A DNA stretch of 61,126 nt from a virus (IMGVR_UViG_3300025305_000017:1-61126), one strand, 5' to 3'. Counted from the stretch's first letter, positions 1,816 to 30,400 are shown. The notes: generated by a model from the letters alone, not told the origin. A program made the numbers and translations.

Positions 1816-1948
1816 AAGCCAGAAAGGTGGAAGCATTACACGCAGTGGGTAAGAAAGGACTACGCTGACCTGTTGGTCAGCGCATCCTTAAGTGCATTCA
1901 TAGTGGTGCATTTAATGATGCGTTGAGCGCATCTGAGAGAGAGAGCAA

Positions 1949-3025
1949 ATGAAAAATCTTATTTCGATGGCAGACCTACCCGATGTTATTCGGACTTCCC
2001 ATCGTATCCAAATCGATACGCCTGAAGAGGGACAGCCCCTATACGTTCGAGGCCCCATCGGCGTCGGTAAGAGCCAATGCCCAAAGCAAGTTGCCGAGGA
2101 AGACGGCACCTATTGCAAAATTGTTAACTTGGCCGACTACCAGCCCAGCGAGATCTCTGGTTGGGTCACACAGGTAGGCGACCAGATGGCGCAACTTAAA
2201 CCAAGTTGGTTCGTCGACATTCTTCGCGAGGCTGACAAGGGCCGCGCATCAATTCTGGTTCTTGAGGAATTTGGATTGTGTGATCAGGACCAACAGCGCG
2301 CCGCTGCTAAAATAGTATGCGACCGCACGGTTGCTGGGGAGCAACTGCCTCCCAACTGCCTCATCGTAGCCAACGGAAACCGACGCGAGGATCGAGTCGG
2401 AATTAGGGCAATGCCAGAGCATCTTGTGAGCCGGTTCAGCCATGTCGACGTTGAGGCTGAACTTGAACCGACCCTTGCTCACTTTGCCAAAATAGGCGTC
2501 GACCCAATCGTCAGCGGATACTTGGCGTTCTCAAAAGACTCGCTTCACCGGCATCAGCCTGATGGAACGCCGTTCCCATCTCCCCGGTCGTGGGTCGCGG
2601 TTAGCCGCATCCTCAAAGCTGGCGCGTCAAAGACAATCGAAAGTGTCTTGATCGCTGGGAGGATCGGCGTTGAAGAAGCAGCCAAGTTTATCGGCTTCCA
2701 AAATTTGGCACACTCACTGACAGTGCCGTCGAAAGTTTTCGCGTCACCCGACACTGCGCCGGTCCCCACTACCGACGATGGCGACCCAGCTATGGACGGT
2801 TGCTTTGCGATGGTCTCCGCATTGGTTGCGGCGGTCTCGACAAAGACGGCCAGCGCCTTGGGCGTTTATCTCAAGCGCTTGCCGGTCGAGCTTCACCCTG
2901 TCGCAGGGGCTGCGCTCAAGCTGCGCAACGAGGGCCTAAAGGCGGAGGGCAAGCCTCAAATAAAATCCGCTGAGATCGCTGATATCTATGTCGGAACTCA
3001 GCAGGTTCTAGCTGAGGACGATTAG
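1949..3025 (+). CDS. MoxR-like AAA+ ATPase
   Basis: Walker A GPIGVGKS, Walker B ILVLEE, ANGNRRED, LVSRF arginine-finger region, FPSPRSW motif. Confidence 0.85.
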   Translation: MKNLISMADLPDVIRTSHRIQIDTPEEGQPLYVRGPIGVGKSQCPKQVAEEDGTYCKIVNLADYQPSEISGWVTQVGDQMAQLKPSWFVDILREADKGRASILVLEEFGLCDQDQQRAAAKIVCDRTVAGEQLPPNCLIVANGNRREDRVGIRAMPEHLVSRFSHVDVEAELEPTLAHFAKIGVDPIVSGYLAFSKDSLHRHQPDGTPFPSPRSWVAVSRILKAGASKTIESVLIAGRIGVEEAAKFIGFQNLAHSLTVPSKVFASPDTAPVPTTDDGDPAMDGCFAMVSALVAAVSTKTASALGVYLKRLPVELHPVAGAALKLRNEGLKAEGKPQIKSAEIADIYVGTQQVLAEDD

Positions 3026-3084
3026 CACCTTGAAGAGGGTGTATGAATGGTACACCAAGCGCCCGGGGTTCATCCCCGGGCGCT

Positions 3085-3134
3085 GCGTATCGGGCTAGCT
3101 GCCCGGCTGACGATTCCAACTACGGATGAAACGC
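3085..3134 (+). ncRNA. Type III hammerhead ribozyme 1
   Basis: GCG-UA | UCGGGC-UAGCU-GCCCGG, core CUGACGA, stem II UUCC-AACUAC-GGAU, GAAA-CGC; predicted cleavage after 3089. Confidence 0.8.
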
Positions 3135-3154
3135 TCACACAGGAGAATCACAAA

Positions 3155-4120
3155 ATGGCTAATGACATCTATGCTAAGAACGGCTTGCTTGTCGGCCTAA
3201 GCGCGAAGTGCTTGGGCTGGGAACGCAAGGATGATCACATCACCCGGGCCGTGCAAGAGCAGCACGGCGTCGGTGACGACGCTGGCGGGTGGCGCAAATG
3301 GCTGTTGCCAAAGTCACTCGTTCATGGGCCTCAAGAAATTGTCCGCAAGGCGCGCACCATTCACGAGCGCCTCACGGTTGCGTGGGGCACAAAAGGAATG
3401 CGCTACCTTCCGCTGGAACACTTCGATGTGTACACCGAAAGGTTCGAGAAACTCAAAGGCGAGTTTGACAAGGCAGTGTCCGATTTGCAGGGGAAGGTTC
3501 CCCAGTACATTGAAGATCAGAAGCAGCGCCTCTCAAACGCCAACGACGGCACTACGCTGTACCGCGAAGAAGACTATTCGCATCTCGCGAATATCGCCCC
3601 GTCGTATGATTTCATACGGAGGGTTCAAGCAGTCCCTAAAGAGGGCGACCTGATTGTCGACCTCGTTGGCGAAGAGCTAGACAAACTCAACGCCGACGCC
3701 GCTGCAACCCGCCAAGTGTCGGCGGACGCTGCCAAACTGGATCTAGCCAAGCGCCTCGCCAAGTGCGCCAAGGTTATTGACGATGCGCTCAAGGGTTTCA
3801 GCGTGACGCGCGTCAGGAAGTCGGGCGGAAAATATAAAAACGAGGCCACCCGCAACGGCGCTCCCGGCGCACGTCTCGCTGAGAGCATGATCACCAATCT
3901 GCAAGACCTCATTGAGATCGCTGATGGCTTGAACGTAACCGGCGATGCCGACTTGCGCCAAGCCATTGCCGACGTTCGCGACGGCAGCTTGGTGAAATAT
4001 GACGTTGATGATTTGCGCGACCCAACAGCGTCAGACGTTGTTGAGCAAGTGCGCTCTGATGCGTCTGACCTCGCCGCCAAGATGGCTGGGTTCATTGGGG
4101 CCGACGACCAAGGCGACTGA
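3155..4120 (+). CDS. DUF3150-like protein of the AAA/vWA system
   Basis: ATG at 3155 with AGGAG RBS; helical protein with K-LLP, TVAWG and YREEDY motifs; lies between the AAA and vWA genes. Confidence 0.6.
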   Translation: MANDIYAKNGLLVGLSAKCLGWERKDDHITRAVQEQHGVGDDAGGWRKWLLPKSLVHGPQEIVRKARTIHERLTVAWGTKGMRYLPLEHFDVYTERFEKLKGEFDKAVSDLQGKVPQYIEDQKQRLSNANDGTTLYREEDYSHLANIAPSYDFIRRVQAVPKEGDLIVDLVGEELDKLNADAAATRQVSADAAKLDLAKRLAKCAKVIDDALKGFSVTRVRKSGGKYKNEATRNGAPGARLAESMITNLQDLIEIADGLNVTGDADLRQAIADVRDGSLVKYDVDDLRDPTASDVVEQVRSDASDLAAKMAGFIGADDQGD

Positions 4121-4174
4121 TCGCAGCGCCACTGCCCATCTAGGTCGATGGGCAGCACGGTGCGACCAAGCACC
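4111..4174 (+). repeat. Repeated hairpin element, copy 1 (26 bp identical to 7052..7077)
   Basis: AGGCGACTGATCGCAGCGCCACTGCC, then stem CTGCCCATC/GATGGGCAG and stem GGTGC/GCACC. Confidence 0.75.
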
Positions 4175-4189
4175 TGAGAGAGAGACAAT

Positions 4190-5593
4190 ATGAGTGGTTT
4201 AGTTGCAAAGCTAAAGTCGGGGATTGTCGACCCCGGCGCTGCCATCAAGCGCATGGTAGTAATATCCAAGATCAAGGTCTTGGTTACGCATCCCTTTACG
4301 GGATGCCGATTGCTGCGAATGAAAGTGCTTTACACAACAGCGCTTTCGACTTGCGGCGTCGACGGCACTCACTTGTTCGTTAACCCCGATTACTTTTCCA
4401 AGACACTCGACAAGCCCAAGCGCAAAGGCGTTTTGTGGCATGAAGGTGCGCATGTTTGGATGATGCACCATCTGCGTCGGGGCGACCGCGACCCTCACTT
4501 CTATAATCTGGCTGGCGATGGCGTGATTAATTATCACGCAATCAAAGAGGGTTTTGAACTGCCAGAAAATCACATTTCCTTCGCATCCTTGAGAGCGCAG
4601 GGGTATGACCTCCCTCTGAAAGACGGTGAGTACACCACTGACTCGCTTTACGATGCGCTCATTGCGCAAGGCAAGAACCCCGGCGACCAGCCCGGCAAGA
4701 ACGATGGCGGCGACGACGGCGACGACGGCAAGACCGGCGACCAGCCGGGAGAAACCGGCGACGACGGCGACGACGGCGAAGACAGCGACGACGGCGACAC
4801 TGGTGAGACGGGTGACGGCGAAGGTGCCGACACTGGCGAGACTAGTGGCGGCGAAGACAACCAAGGCGAAGATCCTTTTGAAGACGTTGGCGGCACCGGC
4901 ATTGTCATAGATGCTGAGGACGACGACGGAGAATCTTTGAAGGGTACGGAACTCGCTCAAGCGCAGCGTGAACTGGCGGGTGAGATCTTTAATGACGCGC
5001 AGAACGCAAAGAGCCGGGGAAAGTTGCCCGGGAGTATCGCAGAGTATGTAGACTCTTTGCGCGATGCCGTGATTGATTGGCGAGAGAAACTCGCGCGGTT
5101 CTTCAATCGGGGTTCCGATTTTAGAAGTGACCCCAATCGCATCGACAAAAAGGCAGCGCGCCGTGGCTTGTTTCTGTCACGCCGTGTCAAGGAAGGCACC
5201 GGCACTGTTGTCGTCGGCGTCGACACTTCAGCATCGGTGAGCCAGCGTGAGTATAAGGTGCTGATGGCGGAGCTAAAGGCCATCTGCACAGAGGCTGGCG
5301 CTCAAGAGGTTGTCGTGCTTTACGCCGACACATCGATACGGCACGTCGACATATTTGAAGACCCAAGCGAGATCGAAGAACGCGACCTTGGCCGCTACGG
5401 CGGCGGCGGCACCGACTTCCAGCCGGTCTTCGATTACGTTTACGAGAACGAGGTCGAAGTGGACACGCTGGTCTATCTGACTGACCTTGAGTGCAGACTT
5501 CCAGAGGAACCCGATTACCCCGTCCTCTGGGTCTCGACCACTGACGCCGTCGCGTCTTGGGGGGAGACCATAAAGCTAGACTCTACTGGCTGA
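4190..5593 (+). CDS. Zincin metallopeptidase-vWA domain protein (DUF2201-like)
   Basis: HEGAH..MMH zinc motif, Gly/Asp-rich linker, MIDAS DTSAS, GGGGTDF and YLTD motifs. Confidence 0.85.
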   Translation: MSGLVAKLKSGIVDPGAAIKRMVVISKIKVLVTHPFTGCRLLRMKVLYTTALSTCGVDGTHLFVNPDYFSKTLDKPKRKGVLWHEGAHVWMMHHLRRGDRDPHFYNLAGDGVINYHAIKEGFELPENHISFASLRAQGYDLPLKDGEYTTDSLYDALIAQGKNPGDQPGKNDGGDDGDDGKTGDQPGETGDDGDDGEDSDDGDTGETGDGEGADTGETSGGEDNQGEDPFEDVGGTGIVIDAEDDDGESLKGTELAQAQRELAGEIFNDAQNAKSRGKLPGSIAEYVDSLRDAVIDWREKLARFFNRGSDFRSDPNRIDKKAARRGLFLSRRVKEGTGTVVVGVDTSASVSQREYKVLMAELKAICTEAGAQEVVVLYADTSIRHVDIFEDPSEIEERDLGRYGGGGTDFQPVFDYVYENEVEVDTLVYLTDLECRLPEEPDYPVLWVSTTDAVASWGETIKLDSTG

Positions 5594-5627
5594 CGACTAT
5601 GACGCCCGGGGAGAACCCCCGGGCGCA

Positions 5628-5677
5628 GCGTCTGGGACTAGCGGTCCCATTGACATGCGGTGAGATCCGCGAAACGC
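5628..5677 (+). ncRNA. Type III hammerhead ribozyme 2 (variant core)
   Basis: GCG-UC | UGGGAC-UAGCG-GUCCCA, core UUGACAU (U3-A8 covariation, A9U), GCGG-UGAGAU-CCGC, GAAA-CGC; predicted cleavage after 5632. Confidence 0.75.
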
Positions 5678-5694
5678 AAAGGAGGATGTATCAC

Positions 5695-6582
5695 ATGCAA
5701 GAAGGAACTAAAGATGCGTACCAAGACTTCCTAAAGATGAGGAGGACTCTTGACGCCATGCGAGGAGTGATCGGCAACGAGGCGTTCAACGCCTTCATCC
5801 GCTCACTCAAAGACGACGACTTACACTCTTGGGATCAGCGGAAGATTGTTACGGACGCGCGGCCAGACATCGCTGGTGAACTAATGATCAGCCCCATACT
5901 CGACGCGCTTAAGCGCGTGCAAGACTATCGCGCAACGCGGTCCATTGACCAACTAAGGTACAACCAAGGGCCTACGTTTACCGGGCGCTGGGAAAGTCGA
6001 CTAAACTCCGTCACCAGCGCTTTCAATAGCTGGCGCGAGAAGGTCAAGGTGTCTTTGTATTTCGGGAAGAACGCCGACGTGATCGACGGCTTGAAAGACT
6101 CGCGAGTATCAACCGCCGGTTATTATGGCAACGAGCTACGGGTAAAGATCAAAGTGAATGCGAGGATCTTTACGAAGGTCATGCCGCTTTTCAACGGCGG
6201 CGAGATCCATGCGAGAGATCACTATTCTCCCGGCGATGGCCGTGAGAGTTGGGATCACTTGCCGCAAGTCGAGAGGCTGGGAAACACCCGCACCGGAAAA
6301 TATTTCCAGTATTTAATCTACGATATTGGGGAGCCGGTGTTCGACTTTCCAAAGGATCAAGAAATTGTCCCGATGGAAAACGGCATCCGCGCGTACCCGG
6401 TTGATGTCATTGAGGTCGTCGGTCCATTAGGTGATCGCAGCCTTGACGTGTCGAAGAAGTGGCTGGCATTCATGGGCAAGCACATCAAAGAGGACACCGT
6501 CACGGCGGTACACGATTCGCCGCGACAGGCTTACAACCTCTGCCGACAACGGTTGTGCCGCGACATGGTGGCGCAGTTATGA
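5695..6582 (+). CDS. Hypothetical protein
   Basis: Long ORF; AAGGAGG RBS 9 nt before ATG 5695. Confidence 0.7.
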   Translation: MQEGTKDAYQDFLKMRRTLDAMRGVIGNEAFNAFIRSLKDDDLHSWDQRKIVTDARPDIAGELMISPILDALKRVQDYRATRSIDQLRYNQGPTFTGRWESRLNSVTSAFNSWREKVKVSLYFGKNADVIDGLKDSRVSTAGYYGNELRVKIKVNARIFTKVMPLFNGGEIHARDHYSPGDGRESWDHLPQVERLGNTRTGKYFQYLIYDIGEPVFDFPKDQEIVPMENGIRAYPVDVIEVVGPLGDRSLDVSKKWLAFMGKHIKEDTVTAVHDSPRQAYNLCRQRLCRDMVAQL

Positions 6583-6788
6583 GGCGTACAATTGAGCAAT
6601 GGCGGCGGACGGCGGTGACTATCGCCGCCAACCCCGCCCACTATTCACCATCGCAGCGGTGGATAGCTTGGGCTTTTCTGTACGAGCAGAAAACCGGCCA
6701 GCCGTTGCGCCAGATTAATAGTGAGTTCCCCGGAGGGACACAGTCACCCTCTTGTCGGGGAGCGGTCCAGAACAAAGAGGAGGAGTGA
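6579..6788 (+). CDS. Hypothetical protein
   Basis: ATGA overlap with the upstream stop (MRRTIEQW...). Confidence 0.5.
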   Translation: MRRTIEQWRRTAVTIAANPAHYSPSQRWIAWAFLYEQKTGQPLRQINSEFPGGTQSPSCRGAVQNKEEE

Positions 6789-18457: not shown

Positions 18458-21400
18458 CTACCTCCCTAGCTGAAAAGCTTCCTGTCTCATAGCTGGTAGA
18501 TCCTGTACAGCCAGTAACTCATCCTGCGTAATGTCGTCAATCAAAGCCCTCTTTTCCTCACCTGACATGTCGCCTTCCATTATACTCTTTCTCTCCTCCC
18601 TGAGGTCAGCAAGTATCTGAGCAATAGCATTCACCTCTTGCTCCAAATCCAGCAACGCAGCCCTCTTGTCGGCGAACTCCTCACTCTTAACGATGGTAAG
18701 CTCACCTTTTTCCAACATATCATAAGTACCCACCGCCTGCGTCACAGCTTCCCTTAGTTGATAGAACTGTGTCACCAAACCACGGGCATCGGGGCGCGCA
18801 AAGAAGCGCCTGATAAATGGATACTCGGTAAGCTTGCGAGTCTGCGTTTCACCCAGTTCATCATCAACCGAGCGCACCAACTGATCAACCGTATCAAGCA
18901 ATACCGTACCCAGCGTACCGCCGTATCCCTTGATCATGTGATCGATCTTGATCGGAGAGTAATTGATCGCCTCCCCTAACTCACGCGCCAGTCCTGACGT
19001 TCTACTGGCATAACGATACCCCGGCTCAATGCCCTTTAGGTATTGCCCTTCGATCTCACGTCCCGTCCAGAAACTATAGTTAACGAGAGCTTCTCCTAGA
19101 GGAAGAACCGCTTGAGGTATAGGATTAAACTCGAACGTATTAACCAACCCCCTTCTCAGGGATTGCGTCACATCAAGAGGGACATCTTGCCCGAGGAACA
19201 AAGCCATTAACCTCTCAGGTATGGTCTTGAACAGGTATCCAACCTCAAACGGTATGGGTATCTTGATAGGCGGCCCGTCATATCCGGGGATCCACGACGA
19301 TGGAATGATCCAGTAGTTGTCCTTTACCTCGGGGTTTTGATTGATGTATTCCTCATCGTCATGCACCAAAGTCCAGTAAGCTGCACTGCTCATTCCTACC
19401 AGCAATGACCTCATCAGGAAGCGGCGTTTGACAATGTCGGACTCTGGTCGTGCAGCAAAGCCGGGCCTCCCCATAGACGATCTATAAAGCACGTCGAGTC
19501 CCTGTATCCTAGCGTTCAAGAAGGGCACCATGACAGCGATATTCTGAATTAAGGCAGAAGAACCCCTAGCCGAGAAGTTGATAACTTCCTGTGCCTCCCA
19601 GAAAGCCTGCACTTCATCGCCAGTCTCTTTTAATACCCTGTTGTAAACAGCAATTCTGGTAGCAGCATCTGACGCCCGCGAACCTGTGCCGGTTACATCC
19701 CATAAATACTTGAATGGGTTGCGAATAGCCCGCCTCATCTCAGAAGGATACTGATACTTCTGAAGTTCCTTTTCGATAAAGGTGGTCATCTTGGTAGGAT
19801 CGCCACCAAAATCAAACCCTGTCATCAAGCCTGCGGAAGCCAGTGCGTTAGCCGACTCATCCCCACGCACAGCACTGTACATCCCTTTCATGGTGCCAGC
19901 TAATGCACCAGTCTTGCGCCCGCTAGTAACCCATGCAGACAACGAGTCACGCAGCATGTTAGCGGCCATGAAGTCTGGTGATCTGGTGATCATCTCCCTC
20001 AGGAAACGGGCTGGCATACCAAACAGATTAACCCACGGCGGGATCCGCTGATGTTCTAAGTAGTTAAATAGCGATGAAAAAAGCAGTTGGTCTCCCACAA
20101 AGAGAGTCATAGACTTACCTTTGACTCTGAAGGTTATCGCCCCCGGTGTCCTGATCTTGGCCCTCACCGTTGTCTCAGGCTCTACCAAGACAAGGTTACG
20201 CATCGCACGCTGCACCCCGACATTCATCATGCCCGTTTGTACAGCAGCTAAAGCATTCTCGGTTAGGGTATCAAGGAATCCTCCAATGGGCATTCCGCCT
20301 TCTACTACCGACACCTCAAGATTGGGGTGCTCTTGCTTTAGTTTCTTAGCATAACCCTTTGCGACTGCCTTCTGATGAGACTCAAAGGTCGTTGGAAGAC
20401 GGGTTACTATCTCTTCTCCATTAATGGTCTCTTTGGTAACGATAGTCCATATCGTTCCCTTGCCAGAGAGAGGGGGAGGAGGCCGCGTAGTAATGCCGCT
20501 AAATACCTGCGTCTCCCCCAGCACCTCTTCATATTTTTGGTCAAGTTGCCTGTAAAACGGAACGTAATCCGCGGTCTCTGTCCATTGGTCGGCCTTCTTA
20601 CGGTCGATAACCCCTGTGTCTACTAAAAGATCCACGAAGTAGCTGTTCCACACCTGATAGTTCTTAAATATCTGATCGAAATCTAGGAAGGTATCCTGTC
20701 CCGTAGCTATTATCTTTCGCGCAATGGCATCTTCCGTTAAGGCTGGGTCACCGATTATACGTTGGATCTCAAGAGGCGTGTTGCCGTACCCTAGATACTC
20801 GATGATCTGATCCTGCGTTAAGAGCCTCTCCCTACCCTCTCTCAGCAAGCGCGCTGCCCTGCGCCCGATAGCATAGGCATGGAAAGTACGGAACCTATTG
20901 CCCTCACGCAGGGGTTCGATGATGGGTATCAAACCTGTAGGCGTACCAGCAATGGGACTAGGCGACAGAGAGCCATCGATGTTGGTTTGCATTGCATCTT
21001 TGGGAATGTTTTTAACGGATGTACCGCCATTGGCATAAACAGGGACGCCCTTGGAAAGAGCATAGGCAGTTATAGCCGTTCCCCTTCTGGCCGAACGTAA
21101 AGCCGTCCACGCAGACGACGCCGCACTCAGGAAGCTAGCGTACTTTGTATCCGACTCAGCCAAATAAACATCAGTCCGACGCGCAGGATCCCACATATCA
21201 ACAACGCTTTGACGGAACCACTTGAAAAAATCCGTGTAACTATCTAGCGGCGTGCTACCGAGCATACCAAGATTGGTTAAAACCTTGCTTCCAAGAGTCT
21301 CGTCGGTGGTTTGTGCGGCAGAAATCATACTTAAATCAACATCACCAACGCCCTCTTCCTTGTTTAAAAACGAGAAGGCCCGTGCGGCTTGGTAGGGACG

Positions 21401-24400
21401 CTTGTGCTTGTCCTTGCGGGTGTAGCCCTTGCGGCTACGCACCACCCGCTTCCTGTACTTGGGTGTGCGCAAGTCCTCGGCAATGACGTTGCGCTGACGC
21501 TCTTCCTCGAAAGCCTTTTTGCCCGCCTTGTCCTTGATAAAGGAGCGCGCTTCCTTGGAAGAGAAAATCCTACGCTGGATCTCATCCTCAAGCTCCAACG
21601 CATCGATGATGGGGTCTGCCATAGAGGCAGAGATGTTGCGCGTCTCTCCTGCAAAGAGGGCTGAGAGGTTCGCCATCTGCGGGATCGAGTCGATGATGCG
21701 GTCAAGCCTGCTACCCTCATAGCGTGATCCCACAGCAGGGTGACCCCGTACCTCAATGCGGTTGTCGCCGCTTTGTATGGTTAAGGTCGCCCGGTCAGGA
21801 CGTTGGTCGAGAGTGAGGCGCATCCCGTGGCCGCGGAGGCTGTCGTATTGGGTATCGGTTATGTCGTAGAACGGTCGAGCGGCTTTTGCTTTAGCTCCTT
21901 CTGCAACCCCTTTAGCAACTGCGCCCCTAGGTCGAACGCCCGCGCCCGCCCTTTGAGTGACCTGAACTCTTTTAACGAGTTCTTTGATTCTGCTCGCTCT
22001 TTCCGTGAGCGCTTTCTCGTAGTCTCTGACATTGTTTAAGTCCATTCCTTTTCTTACTTGGTTGAAAGCCCATAGGGCAGCTTGTGTTTCTATTGGCGTC
22101 CAACGCAATTCATTAGCCACCTTGGTGATAAGACGTTGCGCCTCTAAAACCATTCCCTCAGTCGGGCTGTCTCTATTGAAAAGCAATTGAGCGATGTGCC
22201 GGTCAACAACCACCGCTTCATCCGCATCGCGCATGGCCTGTATCATGTCGGGTATTTTCTTGCCCGCAAAATAACGCGCTCCGCCGCCCGGTAACTCAGT
22301 AGGTGGCTTACCAGCCCTTTCCCGAAGAGTTCCCTCCCTAGATGGGAGCCTTCCCATGAGACGATTGATGTTATCTACCACCGGATCCAATAAGAGCTTC
22401 GGTGTAGCAGTTTTGCTAAGAATCCCAAGAGGGTCGCCGGTCTTGATAGCTTCATAAACTACCAGCGCCAGATCAATGTTACGATCAATCCGCTTCTGCT
22501 GGCTGGTGATGGATATGATGTCGTTGAAAAGCTGCATGTCATCACCAAATAGCTCATGCAGAATAGGACGATGGCGCTCATACCAGTCTCGATAATTTCT
22601 TGCTGACTTGGCGTCCTTAATAAGCTGAGTAAAGGTGCGCCTAGATGTAGGCGCTCTGGGCTTACGAGGTAAGACAGGGTACTCTCCTAGCTGTACGGCA
22701 CCCGCAACCATGCGCCGTGCTTCCTTAACCTTGTTGGCTTCATCAGCAAGGATGGCGCGCACTTCACCGGGGTCTACACCGGGAGTATCTTCGGTGATCA
22801 CACCGCTCAAGACATCGTTCTCGAATGCCATCTGGCGGATACGCATGTCTACTTGAGAGGGGCGTAGTAGTTCATCTACTGGAGAAGGACGTAGCGGCTC
22901 AAGAATAAACCGTGGAGTTTCAACTGTAGCAAACTCAGTGTCTAGTGATTGTAAATTAGCCAAGAACTTATTAACAGCAGCGGCACTATCAGACGCTACA
23001 TATCCCTTGAAGTTACCGCTGTCCCAGAACTGAGCTACCGTTTCAAAATTATCTACGAGGATATCTTCAGTTGCTTCCTCGGAGATCATGTTCTTGTGCA
23101 TACCCTCCAGCGTTTCTCGGCTCTTCGCGGTCATCTCTTTCACGCTATAATAGCGTGACTTGAACTTATTTTTCTTTGCCTCCTTCTGATCCCACGCTGG
23201 ACGAGCAGCCATCCCGTCCTTCTCGAATACTTTTTCTTCAATGATGACCAAGCCGTTCTTTTTAGCCAGTTCCTTCATGCGTTTGATTTGAGGCTCACGG
23301 TCAGGAGAAATGAATTGGAATACCATAGCCTCATGGACAACATCATATTTTTTAGGGGGCTGGAAGTAGTAGATAGGAGTGCCATCATCCTCTGCCCACG
23401 CGAGAGTTCCTTCCTGCTCGCGTGATCCAAAGGCTTCTAATTTATAGTCAGAACCGGGAACTGGATCTTTCTGAAAAACCTTAGCCATTTCTATATTGGG
23501 ATCAATGCCAGTCGTTTTGATAGCACCCCCAGATAGAGATGTGATGGTTTTAATTAAAGCCCCTTCCGATGCCCCAACATCCAACATGGTGGAACCGTCC
23601 CCGTATGTGTTGACGATAGCCTCTGCCACAGCCAACTGCACTTCCCCAAAACCGGGAATGCTGGTCTTTATGTGATGCTCGAAATTACCCTTCCACTTAT
23701 CATACAGAGCCGGAACGCCAAAGTAATCGGTAAGACCAATGACTGGAATATATGCGTTACCCGTAGAGGGACGATGTTTGACTCCCAGAGTCGCTGCTGT
23801 AAAAAAATCTGTGTAATCCCTACCAGTTCCGGTCATCACCCGCGCCATCTTGGTCACGGCAGGTTTCTTTAGCTCTAGCTTAGGCATCGTTGGAGGAGAT
23901 CCCACCATCGACCGCGCCATCTTTGGCTTCTTTGTGCCCTTGGCAAGGAACGCATTTACTGAAGCTTCTATAGCTTCTGGAGAAAGGTCACCGAACTGAT
24001 ATTCCCCTAGCGCCTCCATCTTTGTCAGCGCCTCTACCTTCCTTTGGGTAGCTTTGGGTAGCACAGGGTGTGCCGTCTCAAGATAATAGAAAGGCCCTGC
24101 CTCTAAAGTGTCGAGAGCGAGACGTTGGAGACCGCCCCTATGTGCGGGCATACCCGGCATCTCCTCGGGAACGACAAGATCGAACCAACCTCTGATGGGA
24201 TGTGTAGATGCAGGATCATTCCACTCGATCCCTATCTTGGTCGGGGAAGCTATCCTCATCTTCTCCCCTTGATCTATGGTTATAGCAGGGTTGTTCCTCG
24301 GAGCGCCTTTCTCACGGTTCCAATAAGCATCCAACAATGCAGCCACACCCTGCGTTGCATTCTTATAGGGAGTGAAGGCAGCAAATTCCTCGTCGTGCTC

Positions 24401-27400
24401 GGAAGCATGGGCGAGACCGAAATCCTGTGGAGTACCCCGTGGCACAAGAACACGATACTCGTTGCCAGCTACACGCACCCTCCCCCATACGATGGTGGGG
24501 TTGCCAGCAATGTCGCGTCTGGTTTCCAGAGCAAACGCAGAGGCCGGTAAATTGGCGTAGCGGCGGGATTGTTTGACCTTACGCTCCCGTATGGCATCGG
24601 CTAATCTTTGTGCATTACGATTTTCAGCGTTAAACGCTTCCTCATCTATCCGAAAAGCAACTAGTTTCACATCATCAGGGTAAGTATCAAGAGCTACGTT
24701 AGCCCTCTCAACATCTTCAGAGGGTCCGCGTGGAGTAGTGGGGGTTTCGACAATCAATTCTCTCTTTGTTGGCGACCTCTCCACCGCAAACTTTACATCA
24801 TCCTGTTGAATATCTATTGGAGGCCCTAATTCAGCACGATCTTTAGCAATGCCAATGTCATCGAAGGGCACATACCAGCCACTAATGGGTGCAGATAGAT
24901 CAGCGTTAGGAGCGTCAGGAGTACCAAGAAGAGTTCCTAAATCTTCCCGTAACAATCTTGAGTAAACTCGATATGCATCACCCAAGGGATTTTCAAGATA
25001 TCCTTCTGATGGAATCGTCAGAGCCTCAAGGGTTCTCAGGTTTTGAATAGTAGGATCATTATCCCACTCCCCAATGATGAAATTTAATTCATTCTCCTCA
25101 TGTAGCTCTATCCCGGGGAGGCTAACAAAGTCCTGCTTTCTCCAAAATTTATCTAACGCAGTCTCAATGGGTTCTGGCTGGAAAAGAAGATCAGTTTGCG
25201 GGGTGCCCTGCAACCTGACGCGCGGGTTGCCATCATCATCCAACTCACGAACTGGTCTTTTGAGAAGGAGGTCGTCTAATTCATTAAATTGCGTAGACAG
25301 TCCCTCCCAATTAGGAGCGTAAACCTCGAATATTTCACTCCCATCATCCGCAAGCTCCGCGTGAATATAGCCAGTGTTCTCCCCCATAGAAGGTGGCAGC
25401 TTAACCTGCCCATTACTTACATGCCTAACCAGTTGAGCCATACCCTCGTGCGATATAACATAAGCGTCCCACACATAAAGCTCGCCCTTGTTATCGTAAG
25501 CAAAACGTAACTCGGCTCTCTTTCCCACACGCCCAACCAGTCCTTCAGCATGATCTCTCCTGTACTTTTGCGCCATCCTTGTTATCACATGTCGAGAGGG
25601 ATTAATCCTTACCTCCTCAACCTCAGGCTCATAAGTACTGTGAGCGAAAGCTGCCGCTACTTCCTCACCAGTAAACCTTCTGCCGCGTGACCTCCCTACT
25701 TTCTCCTTATCTATGGCACTCATCTCCTCGTCGATAAGAGGATCCCCGATCATGGTGTCTTCGATAGGAAGAAGCCCTATTTTCTGAGGCGCAAAGGGGC
25801 GCTCTTCAATAGGCAGTGAGTCTGCCCGTTTGGCTGGGTCAATGCCGAGACGGTGGAAATTGAACCAAGCGTTGTTTCCCAGTGTCTCAGTAGCCAAAGC
25901 CCAGCGCGCCCACGGACTAGCCATCATACGCGCATGATTAACGTAGGCTGCCTTTCCCCCGAACTTACCCAACGAAAGAGGTGACATGGTGTGAGCGTAG
26001 TAGTCATGCACAGCCCGTAGCACATCATTGTACAACAAGAACGTGCCGTTCATATCGACACGCCCGCTCTGTTTTATGAGGGGATGGTTGGAAGAGAAGT
26101 CACTTTCGTCAGTCTTGAGGATATAGAGATGATTGTTGTTCATAACATCATCTCTCATGGCTGCGCTGTTAGCGTATGGCTCCCCCTCTCCCTCGAACAC
26201 CTCTACCTTGACAGGCAGGGCGTCGAACTGACTAATCGACTCTCGCTGAAGTTCCGTATAGGCTCTTTTAACAGCAGGATTCCCGCTGTCATCATCCGGC
26301 ATAGCGTCGTAGTTGTCGGCTATCCTCTCAAAGGATGTTCTTTCTTCTGGAGTGAGGGTGGTTTGTGGGACGGCAGTGGCAAAGGGCAGCCCACGCAGGA
26401 ATTGAGCTATTCGGTGACTGGTTCTGTTTCCTTCGTGGTACGCCGGGAGACGAAGTGTGCCTGATATCTCTTGATACCCGTTTGTGGCGGCAAATCCACT
26501 ACCGTAAGCCCAGAATCTTCTAATGCTTCTGTTAGCTCGTGATATGCTTTTTCCAAGGGATTGGCGGGCGCGGTTGGCTTGTTGTTGGAACTCTTGGATG
26601 GCGGCTGTGTCATTAGGATCTCCCCAGTAGTATGCCTCTAAATATGTATCAGTTACCGTTAGGCCGGGCAAGCCTGATGACTTAATGACCTCATCGATCT
26701 TTGCCCGCGATAATGGTTTAGGCAAAAGATAGCGAACTGCAATAGTGTTATACGACCCATCTGGATGAACGAACCCGGGAATGTTATTGTTGGGGTCACC
26801 ATCCAAAACGTGGAGTTGTTCTTGATTGAAGTTGGTGGAGAACTGCTTGAGGGCAACCAGCGTATCCTGCCTGTCCGGTTCAGCAAAGCCCACCAGCAAT
26901 CCAACTGATGGCTCACCCTCTCCCGCATAAACCCCCTGCGAGGGGAGTATCTGGAAAGTAGCTGTGGGAATACCGCTCAACAAGTAGGTCAGGGCATCAG
27001 TGGCAATGTCCTGCAACAGGTGAATGGCGTCTTGATTGCCCGTTTGGGCCTGCTCCTGTAAAGCAGCAAGGCCGGGGATCTCAGCATTAACGACCGACAG
27101 GTTGGAAGCTATCTGATTGACAGGGACATCGTCTATGCTCTTGACCTCGCTGCGGTCGAGAACGTCCTGATCCCAAATAACGTAGTTATAAGTACGACTA
27201 TCGCGTAACTCTATCGACCCCGGGTCCGCTGACCATTCTTCTAAAGTCTCTTTTAAATCGCGAGCATCTCTGAGTGTAGATCTTAGATTTTGGGTATAGC
27301 GTCTATTTGCCGCTCTTCCTTTAGGACCAAAAGCAGGTTCTGTCGCTAGAGCAAGAGACGTTTGCAACCGTTCCACCGAAGCCGTGGCCTGCTCTAGCGC

Positions 27401-30400
27401 AAGATCAACATCCCCTGCGGTAGCACGCACAGCACGAGATGCTGCGAGATAGCCTAAATGGTACGGATTGTTTTCATCTATCTCTTCGCCATTATAAAAA
27501 ACACCGATTGGTTTATCCCGACTCAACTGATCCCAATATCTAAGACCCGGAACACCTTCGTCAGCCAACGCCAAAGAAAGAACCTTCTTGGCCTCTCCCC
27601 GCTCTATGCCTTGTTTCTTCTCAATCGCCTCAGTAAGCGCGCGATAAATACCATTAACGGTTCTCTTGGGGTCCAACTGGTATGGTATGTACTTCTGAGG
27701 CACTCCGCTTACCACATTGGTCAGAGCCTCCTGCACTTCTGGAGATTGCTTGTCGAATGCCAGATCAGCATCCATAAACAGCGCCATGTCGGCATCTGGA
27801 ACGTCTATTTCATAGAGGGTAGGCGCGTCTATGGCTGCCCTGACATCTGTACCAGCAGCAATCCATTGATCTATTAGTTGGAGTGCCTCAGAAGTAACTG
27901 CATCCGCTGCTGGTCCGATTTGATATACAAGCGAGTCTAACGATCCGCTTAAATAATCTCTCGCCAACTTTAATAACCGCTGTGGATCAGCACCTAGAGC
28001 TTTCTCTTCTTGTGGATTTCGATAACTACCAAAGAGATCGTTAAGCGCTGCTATTTTATGGCCCCGTTCATGGCTCACAATACCGGAGCTAAGGTCCACA
28101 GCACTGGGCCTAAGGTCTCCAGTCTCCCACCTACCCCGTAGAGATGGATGAGGAAGCGACCTACGCCCCCCTGCATACTCAAGAACCATTTGCAGAATGT
28201 AATTAGCATACGTTAATGGAGAAACCAGTTCCTCTAATGACGGCATTTCCGAGGCAGGCACCACGGGATAACGTCCCCCAACAGGTCTGAGGGGGTTGGG
28301 AAGAACGCCGCCTATTGCACCTTTGTATTCATCACCAAGATGTTGGAGACCCGGCTCTTCCCACGTTTTTTGAGGAACACCATCTATAACAATCTCCCTG
28401 ACAGCATCCTGATTCCTCCACTCCTGCGCACGATCAGCCCTATAAGCCGCACCCGTATCCCGCACCTGCCCCGCATAATAACCCCACCCCTCCATAGTGG
28501 TGTCCTCTCCAGTACCCTGAAAAGCCAGATCTGGCTTGCCGAACACCCGATCCAAAGCCTTACCCCACGGCACGGGACTACCGCTGAACGCGCGCGCCTC
28601 TTTAACCCCCTCCTGCTTTTCCTTCTCAAGCTTCTTACTTAGACTTTCCTCCAGTTCCTCTGGGAAGTCCTCTGTTCGCGCCCCAGTCGGAATAAAGCCA
28701 GCAGGAGTGGGATCAATGATGCGATCAAACACTTGCGCGGCGTTGTAGATTTTGGCGTCAGCAAGACCCCCCTTCAAATTCCTGAAGAAATTGAGGATAC
28801 GCTGCCATATTGTCAGGGGGCGGCCCTTGAGAAAGTTCTGCCCGCTGGCGTGTCCCCTGAACAACTCGGCAGCCACCTCTTCAAGCTGCTCCGTCTCAGA
28901 GAGATCGGAGTAAGTCTCGCGCACCACCTCCATGACGCTCTTAACGGAGCCATCGTCTCTAAGCTGCCCCGTCCAATGAGGAACTTCATTGGCCGCTTCT
29001 GTTAAAGCTTTTATATCGGCAGCATCCAATGTCTTCATATCGACCAGCGCATGGATGGTCTCGTGGTCAAGCAGACCAGCCATGTAACGAGCCATCCATT
29101 TGGGATTCTTGAGAGTGGCTGGAGGTAAGCCATCAAGAGCAATCAAGATCGCTCGCTTAACAGCGGCCTCTTGAGGAATAAATATCGCCTCGTCCCCAAC
29201 CTTCTGACCATATATGCCAGCAATGGTATCGGTAATTATCAGTGGTACCTTGTCTCCTAGATTAGAATACGAGCCAAAGCGACGTAGCAGGTTCTTGCGT
29301 ATCTGACTGAGGATGGCGGGGGTGATATCGGGCTTGATGGTGGCAGTCCGAACAGTATCGGTAAGAGTGGAGATATCTGGAATAATCTGCTTCTCGGCAG
29401 GACCGATGTCCACATGCACAGGATCAATAGCCGACGTAATGATCTCTTTGGTCTCTTCCAGAATAGCCGGTGCCTCTCCACCCACGTCTTCATCGACAGG
29501 ACTGATACCCGGCAGGGCAGCAGGCGGCGTTGCGTCAATGGTTTCTTCTATGATGGGGGGTTCGGGGAGGCGGGTAGTCGGGATAGCTGCCGCAGTCTCA
29601 TCCAGAATAGGAGGCTGTGGAATAGGCTCAAGAGGTATCGCTTCAGCCGTTTCTTCAAGGATCGCGGGCGGCGCGAGCGGCGGCCCCTCTTCTGCTACCG
29701 TTTCAAATTCTTCGGGGAGTCCTTCAGTGGGGTCGGGTGGGGGTACTGGATCCGGTGTGGGGCGAGCAAAGGGGCCACCCACGCTACCAACAAACCCACC
29801 AGTAAGGCCACCAATAGCAATGGCATTAGCAATATTCTCCACCCGCTGTGCCAACTGGATGTCTTCCGGGGAAGCGCCCGTAGCCTCGGTGTATTCACCC
29901 GTCGTCTCCTGAATGATCTGCTGCGCACCTTCGGTAAGCGCCTCTACAGTGAGGCCCTTCTTGCCGAACTGGAGCATCCGCTTGGCAACTGAGTGTGCGA
30001 TTTTTTCTTTGGTTTTTTTCCTGAAGGGAGCAGTGAGGGCAGAGAGACCGGCCATATCCAAAGCGGCCATCGCCACACCCGGACCCAAAGCTATGCTAGC
30101 CGCCGTGTCAGGATCTACCTTTTCCTGCTCAACCAGATAATCATAAGTATCGCCATAGTTCTGGAGGAAAGATCCCGTACCAGCCCCAACACGCATCCCT
30201 ACCCCTACGCCGATAGGGCCACCGGGTGCCCCTGCTATCCCACCAGCAACAGCACCAGCCAATGGCACACCTAAGGAAGCAACGCCTTGCCCTAATCCTT
30301 GACCGACGTAATCCAGAAAAGTATCAAGGTCTTTGATTTGAGTGAGGGAGGGGACGCGAGCAACAAAAGCTTCTTTATCAGGCTCTGCTTCAAAGTCACT

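What the first reader, a model, noticed from the sequence alone, without database searches (positions are those of the whole stretch)
3058..5697. Two variant-core hammerhead ribozymes punctuate the MoxR-DUF3150-vWA operon
Seen: two intergenic cassettes with the same architecture. Each has a GC-rich hairpin (CGCCCGGGG/CCCCGGGCG; 3058-3084 and 5603-5625), then an exactly 50-nt type III hammerhead (3085-3134 and 5628-5677), then an RBS and ATG about 20 nt later. Stems I and II differ in sequence but keep pairing; both copies share loop I UAGC, GAAA and a 4-bp stem III. Copy 1 has the canonical CUGACGA core but a U-U pair closing stem II and a GUA site. Copy 2 has UUGACAU (the C3-G8 pair covaried to U3-A8, plus A9U) and a GUC site. 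Known: hammerheads occur in phages and some core variants are active. Inferred: the early mRNA self-cleaves into hairpin-protected upstream pieces and 5'-OH downstream pieces, and the different cores could tune AAA:adaptor:vWA stoichiometry.
Basis: partly seen in the sequence, partly recalled or inferred. Interest (0 to 1): 0.9.

Follow-up and report, generated by a model that had tools for sequence, protein, structure and literature searches.

The report
Variant hammerhead ribozymes in phage operon
Two 50-base intergenic RNA elements in this phage genome are relatives of the self-cutting hammerhead ribozyme, one carrying a previously reported core variant and one carrying a core change for which I found no published report, and they probably cut a multi-gene phage message into separate pieces.

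Summary
3085-3134 and 5628-5677 (+ strand) are the only two such elements in the 61-kb phage record. Each follows a GC-rich hairpin and lies 17-20 nt before a start codon with an RBS.

Rfam does not detect them, even at E<=10. A covariance model built only from nine canonical type III hammerheads of related phage contigs does: 41.4 and 36.0 bits, next best 14. Those relatives score 32.8-40.1 bits on RF00008, all below the 48.5 cut-off. All three stems covary.

Copy 1 has the full consensus core plus a U10.1/U11.1 mismatch, which is kept in two diverged relatives and already reported as a natural variant (PMC3088659).

Copy 2 has U3-A8 plus U9. A diverged copy (L146) has U3·G8 plus U9, three compensated stem pairs and no change at the nine strictly conserved core positions I tracked. 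The variant therefore looks maintained, not decaying.

No cleavage was tested here. I estimate activity at about 0.8 for copy 1 and 0.55 for copy 2.

Hammerheads flanking phage genes are known. The new points are the U9 core, for which I found no report, and the recurring hairpin-ribozyme-RBS cassette. "DUF3150", "MoxR", "early" and "stoichiometry tuning" are unsupported.

The parts
1949..3025 (+). AAA-type ATPase gene, upstream of cassette 1
   Evidence: phrog_1297 ATPase, E 3.8e-54. Pfam AAA 17.1 bits, below its cut-off; AAA_5 E 0.052. 51-52% identical to the ATPase of L001 and L004.
3058..3084 (+). GC-rich hairpin 1: 11-bp stem, 5-nt loop, no U tract
   Evidence: Sequence and fold. The terminator scan does not call it. 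The same hairpin precedes the orthologous element in L060.
3085..3134 (+). Type III hammerhead copy 1. Consensus core CUGACGA...GAAA, GUA site (predicted cut after 3089), U10.1/U11.1 mismatch, stems I/II/III of 6/3/4 bp
   Evidence: Leave-out model R3: 41.4 bits, E 6.3e-10. Orthologues in L060 and L146 have compensatory changes and keep U/U. No RF00008 hit.
3141..3157 (+). RBS (AGGAGA) and ATG of the next gene
   Evidence: The start is conserved in L060 and L146, and L060 has an in-frame TAA between ribozyme and ATG.
3155..4120 (+).
   Evidence: No Pfam or PHROG family.
4190..5593 (+). Metallopeptidase-like plus VWA-like protein gene
   Evidence: PF13203 E 5.9e-31 and PF09967 E 1.2e-22; phrog_1314.
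5603..5625 (+). GC-rich hairpin 2: 9-bp stem identical in sequence to hairpin 1, 5-nt loop, no U tract
   Evidence: Conserved in L060 and L146. Most close relatives have only a GC hairpin at this place.
5628..5677 (+). Hammerhead-derived copy 2. Core UUGACAU (U3-A8, U9), GUC site (predicted cut after 5632), G10.1-C11.1, stems I/II/III of 6/4/4 bp
   Evidence: R3: 36.0 bits, E 2.7e-8. L146 orthologue has U3·G8, U9 and three compensated pairs. L064 has a canonical hammerhead at the same place. No RF00008 hit.
5680..5697 (+). RBS (AGGAGGA) and ATG of the downstream gene
   Evidence: The start is conserved in L060 and L146.
5695..6582 (+). 295-aa gene of unknown family, downstream of cassette 2
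   Evidence: No Pfam or PHROG family. Relatives at 99% and 65% identity.

Best explanation
Both elements are type III hammerhead-family RNAs on the + strand transcript of a tailed dsDNA phage. They belong to a phage-clade subfamily whose other members have the canonical core.

Inferred mechanism:
1. The ATPase, unknown and VWA-like genes and the next gene are co-transcribed.
2. Each ribozyme cuts itself after position 17 (after 3089 and after 5632).
3. The 4-bp stem III lets the two products part.
4. The upstream piece ends in a stable GC hairpin plus 5-7 nt with a 2',3'-cyclic phosphate. This should shield its 3' end from exonucleases.
5. The downstream piece starts with a 5'-OH and about 45 nt of folded ribozyme, 6 nt (copy 1) and 2 nt (copy 2) before the RBS. 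Each downstream gene thereby gets a defined, insulated leader.

Copy 1 (consensus core, U10.1/U11.1) probably cleaves; my estimate is 0.8. Copy 2 (U3-A8, U9) is a maintained variant whose catalysis is uncertain; my estimate is 0.55.

Shown here: sequence, fold, homology to canonical hammerheads, covariation, and conservation of the variants.
Inferred: co-transcription, cleavage, and the fate of the products.
For: (1) Model R1, built from the two window copies alone, retrieved elements in related contigs at 30.1 and 21.3 bits. These have GUC, CUGAUGA and GAAAC, and RF00008 scores them at 36.3-37.3 bits, E about 1e-4.

(2) I searched 132 loci around homologues of the VWA-like gene with model R2. 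In the first 100 loci there were 15 hits at E<=6.9e-9 in 12 loci. In the other 32 loci nothing was stronger than E 9e-4. The hits were at three kinds of intergenic site, each a few to about 30 nt before an RBS and ATG, and usually after a GC hairpin.

(3) Leave-out test. R3 was built from 9 relatives, none of them the window or L060. It scores the window copies at 41.4 and 36.0 bits, full length; the next best is 14.0.

(4) Covariation over 12 sequences: 98.2% of cells paired, 11 of 14 pairs changed on both sides, 0 of 500 shuffles as high, and slid registers reach at most 54%. Within the window lineage (5 sequences): 100% paired, 8 pairs changed on both sides, and the 3-8 pair reads CG x3, UA x1, UG x1.

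(5) Substitutions avoid the core. There are 12 (copy 2 vs L146), 15 (copy 1 vs L146) and 12 (copy 1 vs L060) differences, and none falls in the 9 strictly conserved core columns. Position N7 varies among C, A and U, as expected.

(6) L064 has a hairpin plus a canonical hammerhead at the same vWA-downstream place, with the same stem III as copy 2.

(7) G·U pairs in the stems would be A·C mismatches on the other strand. The structure is therefore RNA of the + strand.

(8) Literature, PMC3088659 (section 8 read whole, other passages read):
- U3-A8 covariation occurs in nature, and such variants cleave in vitro.
- A natural U10.1-U11.1 exists and is the best-tolerated mismatch.
- Several hammerheads flank genes in prophages, suggesting processing of long phage transcripts.
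- A halovirus hammerhead lies 13 nt before a start codon, with a mapped 5' end near its cut site.

(9) No + strand promoter-like or terminator-like site was found between 1949 and 6582.
Against: - No Rfam hammerhead model matches either copy at gathering or at E<=10, even on slices of about 110 nt.
- Even the canonical relatives stay below RF00008's 48.5-bit cut-off.
- Copy 2 departs from the consensus at three core positions. I found no report of U9 being tolerated. A deep mutational scan of another type III hammerhead reports that, apart from the C3G:G8C swap, single and double mutants in the CUGA/G8 region had low activity (PMC9901934, passages read).
- The loop I-loop II Watson-Crick complementarity (UGCU/AGCA) seen in 4 relatives is weak in copy 1 (3 bp, 260 of 1000 shuffles as good) and absent in copy 2. 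Fast cleavage at physiological Mg2+ is therefore not assured.
- Copy 2 is 100% identical in L060, but the DNA downstream is also near-identical there. That identity says nothing about constraint.
- Only one independent copy of the U9 form (L146) was found.
- P(no core hit) is only 0.065 for that pair.
- A decayed hammerhead-like element exists in L024 (2027-2074, 16 bits), so these elements can die.
- The count alignments were fitted to a model descended from the window copies, which leans them toward the structure.
- No cleavage or transcript data exist.
Confidence: 0.75

Rival explanations
1. Copy 2, and less likely copy 1, is a catalytically dead descendant of a hammerhead. It is kept as a structured leader: a three-way junction that insulates the RBS, binds a protein, or is cut by a host RNase rather than by itself.
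For: - Three departures from the consensus core in copy 2, and no RF00008 match.
- No published tolerance of U9 found, and low activity of most core mutants in PMC9901934 (passages read).
- No loop-loop complementarity.
- A U9·G12 wobble could extend stem II and occupy the general base. This is my inference, not tested.
- Most close relatives manage with only a hairpin at this place.
- A decayed copy exists in L024.
Against: - A purely structural junction would not need U4, G5, A6, G12, A13, A14, A15.1-U16.1 and C17. All are unchanged between the window and L146 despite 12 differences.
- Position 8 changed A<->G while keeping a pair with U3. This is the constraint expected of an active core.
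Confidence: 0.2
2. The elements are coding sequence. ORF 3047-4120 (ATG) and ORF 5557-6582 (TTG) are open through them, so the 'ribozymes' would be N-terminal extensions of the two proteins.
For: Both longer ORFs exist and are in frame with the shorter ones. In L146 the ATPase frame even runs through the copy-1 element into the next gene, giving 674 aa.
Against: - L060 has an in-frame TAA between the element and the ATG.
- A strong RBS lies 8 nt before each proposed ATG.
- The changes between homologues are paired stem changes, not codon-like.
- ORF 5557 would overlap the end of the VWA-like gene.
Confidence: 0.02
3. Chance resemblance, or a DNA-level repeat such as a palindromic mobile repeat, a polymerase pause or termination site, or a promoter hairpin. 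On this reading the hairpin is the functional part and the hammerhead-like fold is incidental.
For: - The hairpin stems of the two cassettes are identical in sequence while the hammerhead stems differ. This hints at sequence-specific recognition of the hairpin, or a recent cassette duplication.
- Rfam is silent.
Against: - 0 of 100 shuffles give a 0-mismatch descriptor hit, and 0 of 100 give two hits at up to 3 mismatches.
- R3 E-values are 6e-10 and 3e-8.
- Covariation with strand-specific G·U pairs.
- Hairpin sequences differ freely among relatives while the hammerhead core does not.
- No U tract follows the hairpins.
Confidence: 0.03

Closest known systems
Type III hammerhead ribozyme (Rfam RF00008, clan CL00010)
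   Same: - Open stem III, with stems I and II closed by loops.
- U-H cleavage site, U4-G5-A6, G12-A13-A14 and the A15.1-U16.1 pair.
- Copy 1 has the whole consensus core.
- Canonical relatives of the same subfamily score 32.8-40.1 bits on RF00008.
   Different: - Neither window copy reaches E<=10 on RF00008.
- Copy 1 has U/U at 10.1/11.1.
- Copy 2 has U3, A8 and U9.
- Very compact at 50 nt, with a 4-bp stem III.
Clustered hammerheads flanking genes in prophages and phages, and natural core variants (Perreault et al. 2011, PMC3088659; section 8 and passages read)
   Same: - Several hammerheads in one phage transcription unit, between genes.
- Processing of long phage transcripts was proposed there.
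- U3-A8 covariation and the U10.1-U11.1 mismatch are both described as natural variants.
   Different: - U9 is not mentioned in the text I read. Figure 5 and the supplementary figures could not be seen.
- The fixed hairpin-ribozyme-RBS cassette and the ATPase/VWA-like module are not described there.
HHphage of haloviruses HF1/HF2 (PMC3088659, discussion passage read)
   Same: A variant-core hammerhead 13 nt upstream of the start codon of an early gene in a polycistronic phage transcript. A mapped 5' end lies within 3 nt of its cleavage site.
   Different: That variant has a 2-nt insertion near C3 and depends on high salt. Here the changes are substitutions at 3, 8, 9 or at 10.1/11.1. The host and conditions are unknown.
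Synthetic ribozyme insulators such as RiboJ
   Same: A hammerhead placed just upstream of an RBS removes the upstream RNA and leaves a defined, structured 5'-OH leader. That is what this cassette would do.
   Different: RiboJ is an engineered part. This is a natural phage cassette with a hairpin on the upstream side, not the downstream side.
Type II hammerheads near phage-like genes in Desulfovibrio vulgaris, shown to cleave in vivo by cyPhyRNA-seq (PMC8782182; abstract and passages read)
   Same: Hammerheads next to phage-like genes, with in vivo cleavage demonstrated. The method would test this case.
   Different: Different topology (type II), a bacterial chromosome, and consensus cores.

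Membership tests
Hammerhead ribozyme, type III | Three-way junction with stems I and II closed by loops and stem III open | tested here: met
   The MFE and centroid of the 86-nt cassettes give this fold. The stems covary: 98.2% paired, 11 of 14 pairs changed on both sides. Within the window lineage 100% are paired.
Hammerhead ribozyme, type III | Consensus core C3 U4 G5 A6 N7 G8 A9 ... G12 A13 A14, with A15.1-U16.1 and H17 (consensus as used in PMC3088659) | tested here: met
   COPY 1 ONLY. CUGACGA, GAAA, an A-U closing pair and A17. N7 varies C/A among its orthologues.
Hammerhead ribozyme, type III | The same consensus core, for copy 2 | tested here: not met
   Copy 2 reads UUGACAU. The pair U3-A8 is kept, but U9 replaces A9. 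L146 reads UUGAUGU: U3·G8 and U9. By consensus, copy 2 is a hammerhead-derived variant, not a consensus member.
Hammerhead ribozyme, type III | Paired 10.1-11.1, usually G-C. A mispair here was a rejection criterion in PMC3088659's screen. | tested here: not met
   Copy 1 has U/U, kept in L060 and L146. Copy 2 has G-C. PMC3088659 section 8 reports a natural U10.1-U11.1 and calls it the best-tolerated mismatch.
Hammerhead ribozyme, type III | Match to Rfam RF00008 at the gathering score (48.5 bits) | tested here: not met
   No match for either copy at gathering or at E<=10. Canonical relatives score 32.8-40.1 bits, also below the cut-off.
Hammerhead ribozyme, type III | Homology to bona fide consensus hammerheads | tested here: met
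   Leave-out model R3 from 9 canonical relatives: 41.4 and 36.0 bits, E 6.3e-10 and 2.7e-8. A canonical element lies at the orthologous place in L064. L151 and L155 are canonical members with the same 50-nt layout and loop I.
Hammerhead ribozyme, type III | Tertiary contact between loops I and II that gives fast cleavage at low Mg2+ | tested here: inconclusive
   Watson-Crick complementarity of 4 bp (UGCU/AGCA) in 4 relatives. Only 3 bp in copy 1 (260 of 1000 shuffles as good) and none in copy 2. Non-Watson-Crick contacts cannot be judged. Loop motifs UAGCN and CAGUAY recur.
Hammerhead ribozyme, type III | Site-specific self-cleavage giving 2',3'-cyclic phosphate and 5'-OH ends | not testable with these tools
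   No RNA holder was listed for this DNA. An in vitro assay is needed.
   ATPase: AAA 17.1 bits and AAA_5 E 0.052, both below cut-off, but phrog_1297 ATPase at E 3.8e-54. Middle gene: no DUF3150 hit at E<=10. Third gene: DUF2201_N plus DUF2201 (VWA-like), well over cut-off.

The most novel reading that the evidence does not exclude
This phage lineage keeps two different hammerhead cores, and both alter the same corner of the active site: the A9 / G10.1 divalent-metal pocket. One has U10.1·U11.1. The other has U9 with a U3·R8 pair.

The boldest reading not excluded is that these are selected, attenuated or ion-tuned ribozymes. They might prefer Mn2+, as reported for the natural A6C variant (PMC7151607, abstract), or be conditionally active. 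Partial cleavage would then set different stabilities and translation rates for neighbouring genes of one operon.

U9 would be a natural hammerhead core variant that I did not find described.
Probability: 0.2. Interest if true: 0.7.

Novelty: new variant of a known kind. Interest (0 to 1): 0.5.

Why it matters
Hammerheads in phages have been known since 2011, but their role is still unsettled. This case offers three things.

1. A clade of uncultured phages in which the ribozyme sits in a fixed cassette (protective hairpin, ribozyme, RBS, start codon). It has been gained, lost and moved among the intergenic sites of one gene module. That is a natural experiment on what such ribozymes do for operon expression.

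2. Two ribozymes that the standard Rfam model misses completely. Clade-specific models are therefore needed to count phage ribozymes.

3. A core variant (U9 with U3·G8 or U3-A8) kept in two diverged genomes. If active, it widens the accepted hammerhead consensus. It also bears on the role of the A9·G12 pair and the A9/G10.1 metal site. If inactive, it shows a ribozyme exapted as a structural leader.

Either outcome can be tested with two short transcripts.

Tried and rejected
- Rfam at gathering score on the whole window: nothing. At E<=10 on 2950-5750 and on two slices of about 110 nt: only chance hairpin matches (SorX, rteR, His_leader, L4-Archaeoglobi and the like) and no hammerhead. RF00008 through the genome search on the window: 0 matches at E<=10.
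- blastn of 1900-6700 against the deposited phage collection: no match.
- Single-protein locus searches with the middle gene and the downstream gene in viral contigs: nothing.
- A MAFFT alignment of 11 elements (A6) misaligned the 5' ends and was not used. Model-fitted alignments (A7, A8, A9) were used instead.
- With filters off, R1 dropped L058. R2 recovered it.
- R1's weak hits were judged chance or unclear and left out of all counts: L009 5348 (inside a coding region), L019, L030, L059, L109 and L122. The same goes for R2's weak hits: L079 4318, L115/L118 7171, L128 and L109. L024 2027-2074 was kept only as a 'decayed copy' note.
- My descriptor's hits with long loops or 3-bp stem III (L115/L118 minus strand, L127, L044 and others) were judged chance.
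- Pattern scan for the U9 core with its stem II: only the L146 contig.
- Loop-anchored pattern scan: 7 stretches. One is the L146 contig, two are new canonical hammerheads (L151, L155), and four (three distinct) do not fold.
- The genome search with R3 on the L146 record found only the copy-2 element. The copy-1 element there was found by eye. L067's record was not held.
- Sequencing runs: no RNA holder listed.
- Literature on U9: searches for 'A9U', for 'G10.1' with core mutations, and for A9G/A9C/A9-G12 gave nothing on a U at position 9 of a hammerhead. This covers the held library only. My recollection that classical mutagenesis found A9 substitutions harmful comes from memory, not from a call.
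- The hairpins as intrinsic terminators: rejected, since there is no U tract and the scan does not call them.
- The hairpins as conserved promoters: rejected, since their sequences differ freely among relatives.

Full report
WHAT THE WINDOW IS. The window is a complete 61,126-base virus record. It is a tailed dsDNA phage. It has terminase, portal and virion proteins on the minus strand, and a primase-helicase and an exonuclease among its replication genes. The finding lies in a + strand block near the left end. The block holds an AAA-type ATPase (1949-3025), a 321-aa protein of no known family (3155-4120), a metallopeptidase-like plus VWA-like protein (4190-5593), and a 295-aa protein of no known family (5695-6582). 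'DUF3150' was not detected and 'MoxR' is not established. Nothing here shows that the block is early.

THE OBSERVATION. The two 50-nt elements align without gaps, and so do the hairpins before them. The hairpin stems are identical in the two cassettes while the ribozyme stems differ. With the hairpin included, both cassettes fold into hairpin plus three-way junction (z about -4.4). A descriptor search finds exactly these two sites in the window. In 100 dinucleotide shuffles there was never a 0-mismatch site and never two sites at up to 3 mismatches. Models built from the copies find no third copy.

RFAM IS SILENT. There is no hammerhead match at gathering score or at E<=10 on the whole region, on two slices of about 110 nt, or through the genome search. 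Taken alone this would speak against the reading, so I turned to relatives.

RELATIVES. I searched with the VWA-like protein and then with a four-sequence alignment of it. This gave 52 viral and 80 metagenomic loci, many of them duplicates of one contig.
- Model R1, made from the two window copies only, hit L001 and L004. The hits are textbook type III hammerheads: GUC site, CUGAUGA, G10.1-C11.1, GAAAC. RF00008 scores them at 36-37 bits with E about 1e-4, below its 48.5-bit cut-off. On whole records, 4 of 5 relatives have RF00008 matches at 32.8-40.1 bits.
- The broader model R2 gave 15 hits at E<=6.9e-9 in 12 of 100 loci, and nothing stronger than E 9e-4 in the other 32.
- The distinct elements are L008-type, L012-type, L009 and L067 (each just upstream of the ATPase gene), three in L024, one in L058, one in L064, and two in L060.
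- The layout is nearly always the same: a GC-rich hairpin of free sequence, then the hammerhead, then a few to about 30 nt, then GGAG-type RBS and ATG.
- At the vWA-downstream place, most close relatives have only the hairpin. L064 has hairpin plus a canonical hammerhead with the same stem III as copy 2.

LEAVE-OUT TEST. R3 was built from the nine elements of relatives only, with no window or L060 sequence. It scores copy 1 at 41.4 bits (E 6.3e-10) and copy 2 at 36.0 bits (E 2.7e-8), both full length. The next best site in 61 kb scores 14 bits. One caveat applies: the column structure of R3 descends from a model first drawn on the window copies.

COVARIATION. On 12 distinct elements, 98.2% of cells are paired and 11 of 14 pairs change on both sides. 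No shuffle of 500 reaches this, and slid registers reach at most 54%. U4, G5, A6, G12, A13, A14 and A15.1-U16.1 are invariant. N7 is U, C or A, and H17 is C or A.

THE TWO VARIANTS ARE MAINTAINED.

Copy 1 type is present in the window, in L060 (VWA-like protein 70% identical) and in L146 (downstream protein 65% identical).
- They differ at 12-15 of 50 positions.
- The changes are compensated pairs in stems I, II and III, loop changes, and N7.
- The U10.1/U11.1 mismatch and the whole core are unchanged.

Copy 2 type gives less information in L060. It is identical there, but the flanking DNA is too, so nothing can be learned from it. The informative copy is L146, reached through the downstream protein.
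- It has 12 differences.
- Three are fully compensated pairs: one in stem III and two in stem I.
- N7 changes C to U.
- Position 8 changes A to G, so the 3-8 pair is U·G instead of U-A.
- U9 is kept, and none of the nine strictly conserved core columns changes.

C-G, U·G and U-A at 3-8 form the path expected for a pair under selection. A junction kept only for its shape would not need G5, A6, G12-A14 or C17. The statistics are modest (P 0.065 for no core hit) and rest on a single independent pair.

WHAT IS ALREADY KNOWN. Perreault et al. 2011 (PMC3088659; section 8 read in full, other passages by search) report the following.
- Several hammerheads often flank genes or short gene blocks in prophages, implying that long phage transcripts are processed.
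- C3-G8 covaries to U3-A8 in several natural examples, and such variants are active in vitro.
- Weak stems III are common.
- A variant hammerhead of haloviruses HF1/HF2 lies 13 nt before a start codon, with a mapped transcript end at its cut site.

In vivo cleavage of hammerheads next to phage-like genes has been shown in D. vulgaris (PMC8782182, passages). The A6C natural variant prefers Mn2+ (PMC7151607, abstract). A pairwise mutational scan found that only the C3G:G8C swap rescued activity in the CUGA/G8 region (PMC9901934, passages). That is a warning for copy 2. I found nothing on U9, but I could not see figures or supplements.

MECHANISM. The steps below are inferred.
1. The genes are co-transcribed. 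No + strand promoter- or terminator-like site lies between them.
2. Each ribozyme cuts after position 17.
3. The 4-bp stem III releases the upstream piece. Its 3' end is then a strong hairpin plus a few bases ending in a cyclic phosphate.
4. The downstream piece begins with a 5'-OH and the folded ribozyme body, 6 nt (copy 1) and 2 nt (copy 2) before the RBS.

This resembles engineered ribozyme insulators (recalled, not read). The identical hairpin stems in the two cassettes suggest either that hairpin plus ribozyme duplicated as a unit or that the hairpin is recognised in a sequence-specific way. I cannot tell which. Tuning of protein ratios by different cores is possible but has no evidence.

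RIVALS.
- A dead, exapted ribozyme for copy 2: about 0.2.
- Coding sequence: about 0.02. L060 has an in-frame stop, strong RBSs are present, and the changes are stem-like. In L146, however, the ATPase frame does read through the element.
- Chance or a DNA-level repeat: about 0.03.

VERDICT. Copy 1 is a new member carrying a known natural variant. Copy 2 is a new core variant whose activity is open. Phage hammerheads between genes are known, so this is a moderate finding and not a major one. Its value lies in the U9 core, the recurring cassette, and a clade in which the ribozymes have moved among the intergenic sites of one module.

Noticed in passing
L146:1122-3146 (element at L146:2156-2205): In this relative the ATPase gene has lost its stop codon and the 5' half of the hairpin. 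One 674-aa frame runs through the copy-1-type hammerhead into the next gene. If the ribozyme cuts, ribosomes on the ATPase message would reach a non-stop end. An assembly error is not excluded.
   Followed up: partly
L024:2027-2074: A hammerhead-like element with intact stem I and CUGAUGA, but a short stem II and an A where G12 should be (16 bits with R2). It looks like a decaying copy. L024 also has three good hammerheads (654-702, 1704-1755, 3243-3289), each just before a gene start.
   Followed up: partly
window 1888-1951 and 4132-4192: The other two intergenic regions of the block, before the ATPase gene and the VWA-like gene, share a different leader: two hairpins, then a TGAGAGAGAGA run, then ATG. 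The first is conserved almost letter for letter in L146:1030-1125. The block therefore alternates two leader types.
   Followed up: partly
window 3047-4120 and 5557-6582: The longest ORFs called mechanically run through both ribozymes (ATG at 3047, TTG at 5557). A gene caller could annotate the ribozymes as coding sequence.
   Followed up: yes
L151:1594-1639(-), L155:647-692(-), L060, L146, window: A subfamily signature. A 5-nt loop I reading UAGCN and a 6-nt loop II reading CAGUAY recur in canonical (L151, L155) and variant members. The group upstream of the ATPase gene instead has a UGCU/AGCA loop-loop complement. These may be two kinds of tertiary contact.
   Followed up: partly
window 3058-3084 and 5603-5625: The two hairpin stems are identical (they include a CCCGGGG/CCCCGGG palindrome) although the loops and the ribozyme stems differ. 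L060 and L146 carry near-identical hairpin stems (8-10 bp of the same GC-rich palindrome). This suggests cassette duplication or sequence-specific recognition of the hairpin.
   Followed up: no
window 4190-5593: PHROGs names its family phrog_1314 'HNH endonuclease'. Pfam instead finds a putative metallopeptidase domain (DUF2201_N) plus a VWA-like domain (DUF2201). The PHROG name looks wrong for this protein.
   Followed up: no
window 18458-30667 (-): A single 4069-aa ORF on the structural strand. I did not study it. Earlier notes of the scan discuss it as a giant virion protein.
   Followed up: no
window 4117-4248 (-): Weak Rfam match to L4-Archaeoglobi leader (27.5 bits, E 0.019, below the cut-off of 34.5). 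It is on the opposite strand, over the hairpins before the VWA-like gene, and is most likely a chance hairpin match.
   Followed up: no
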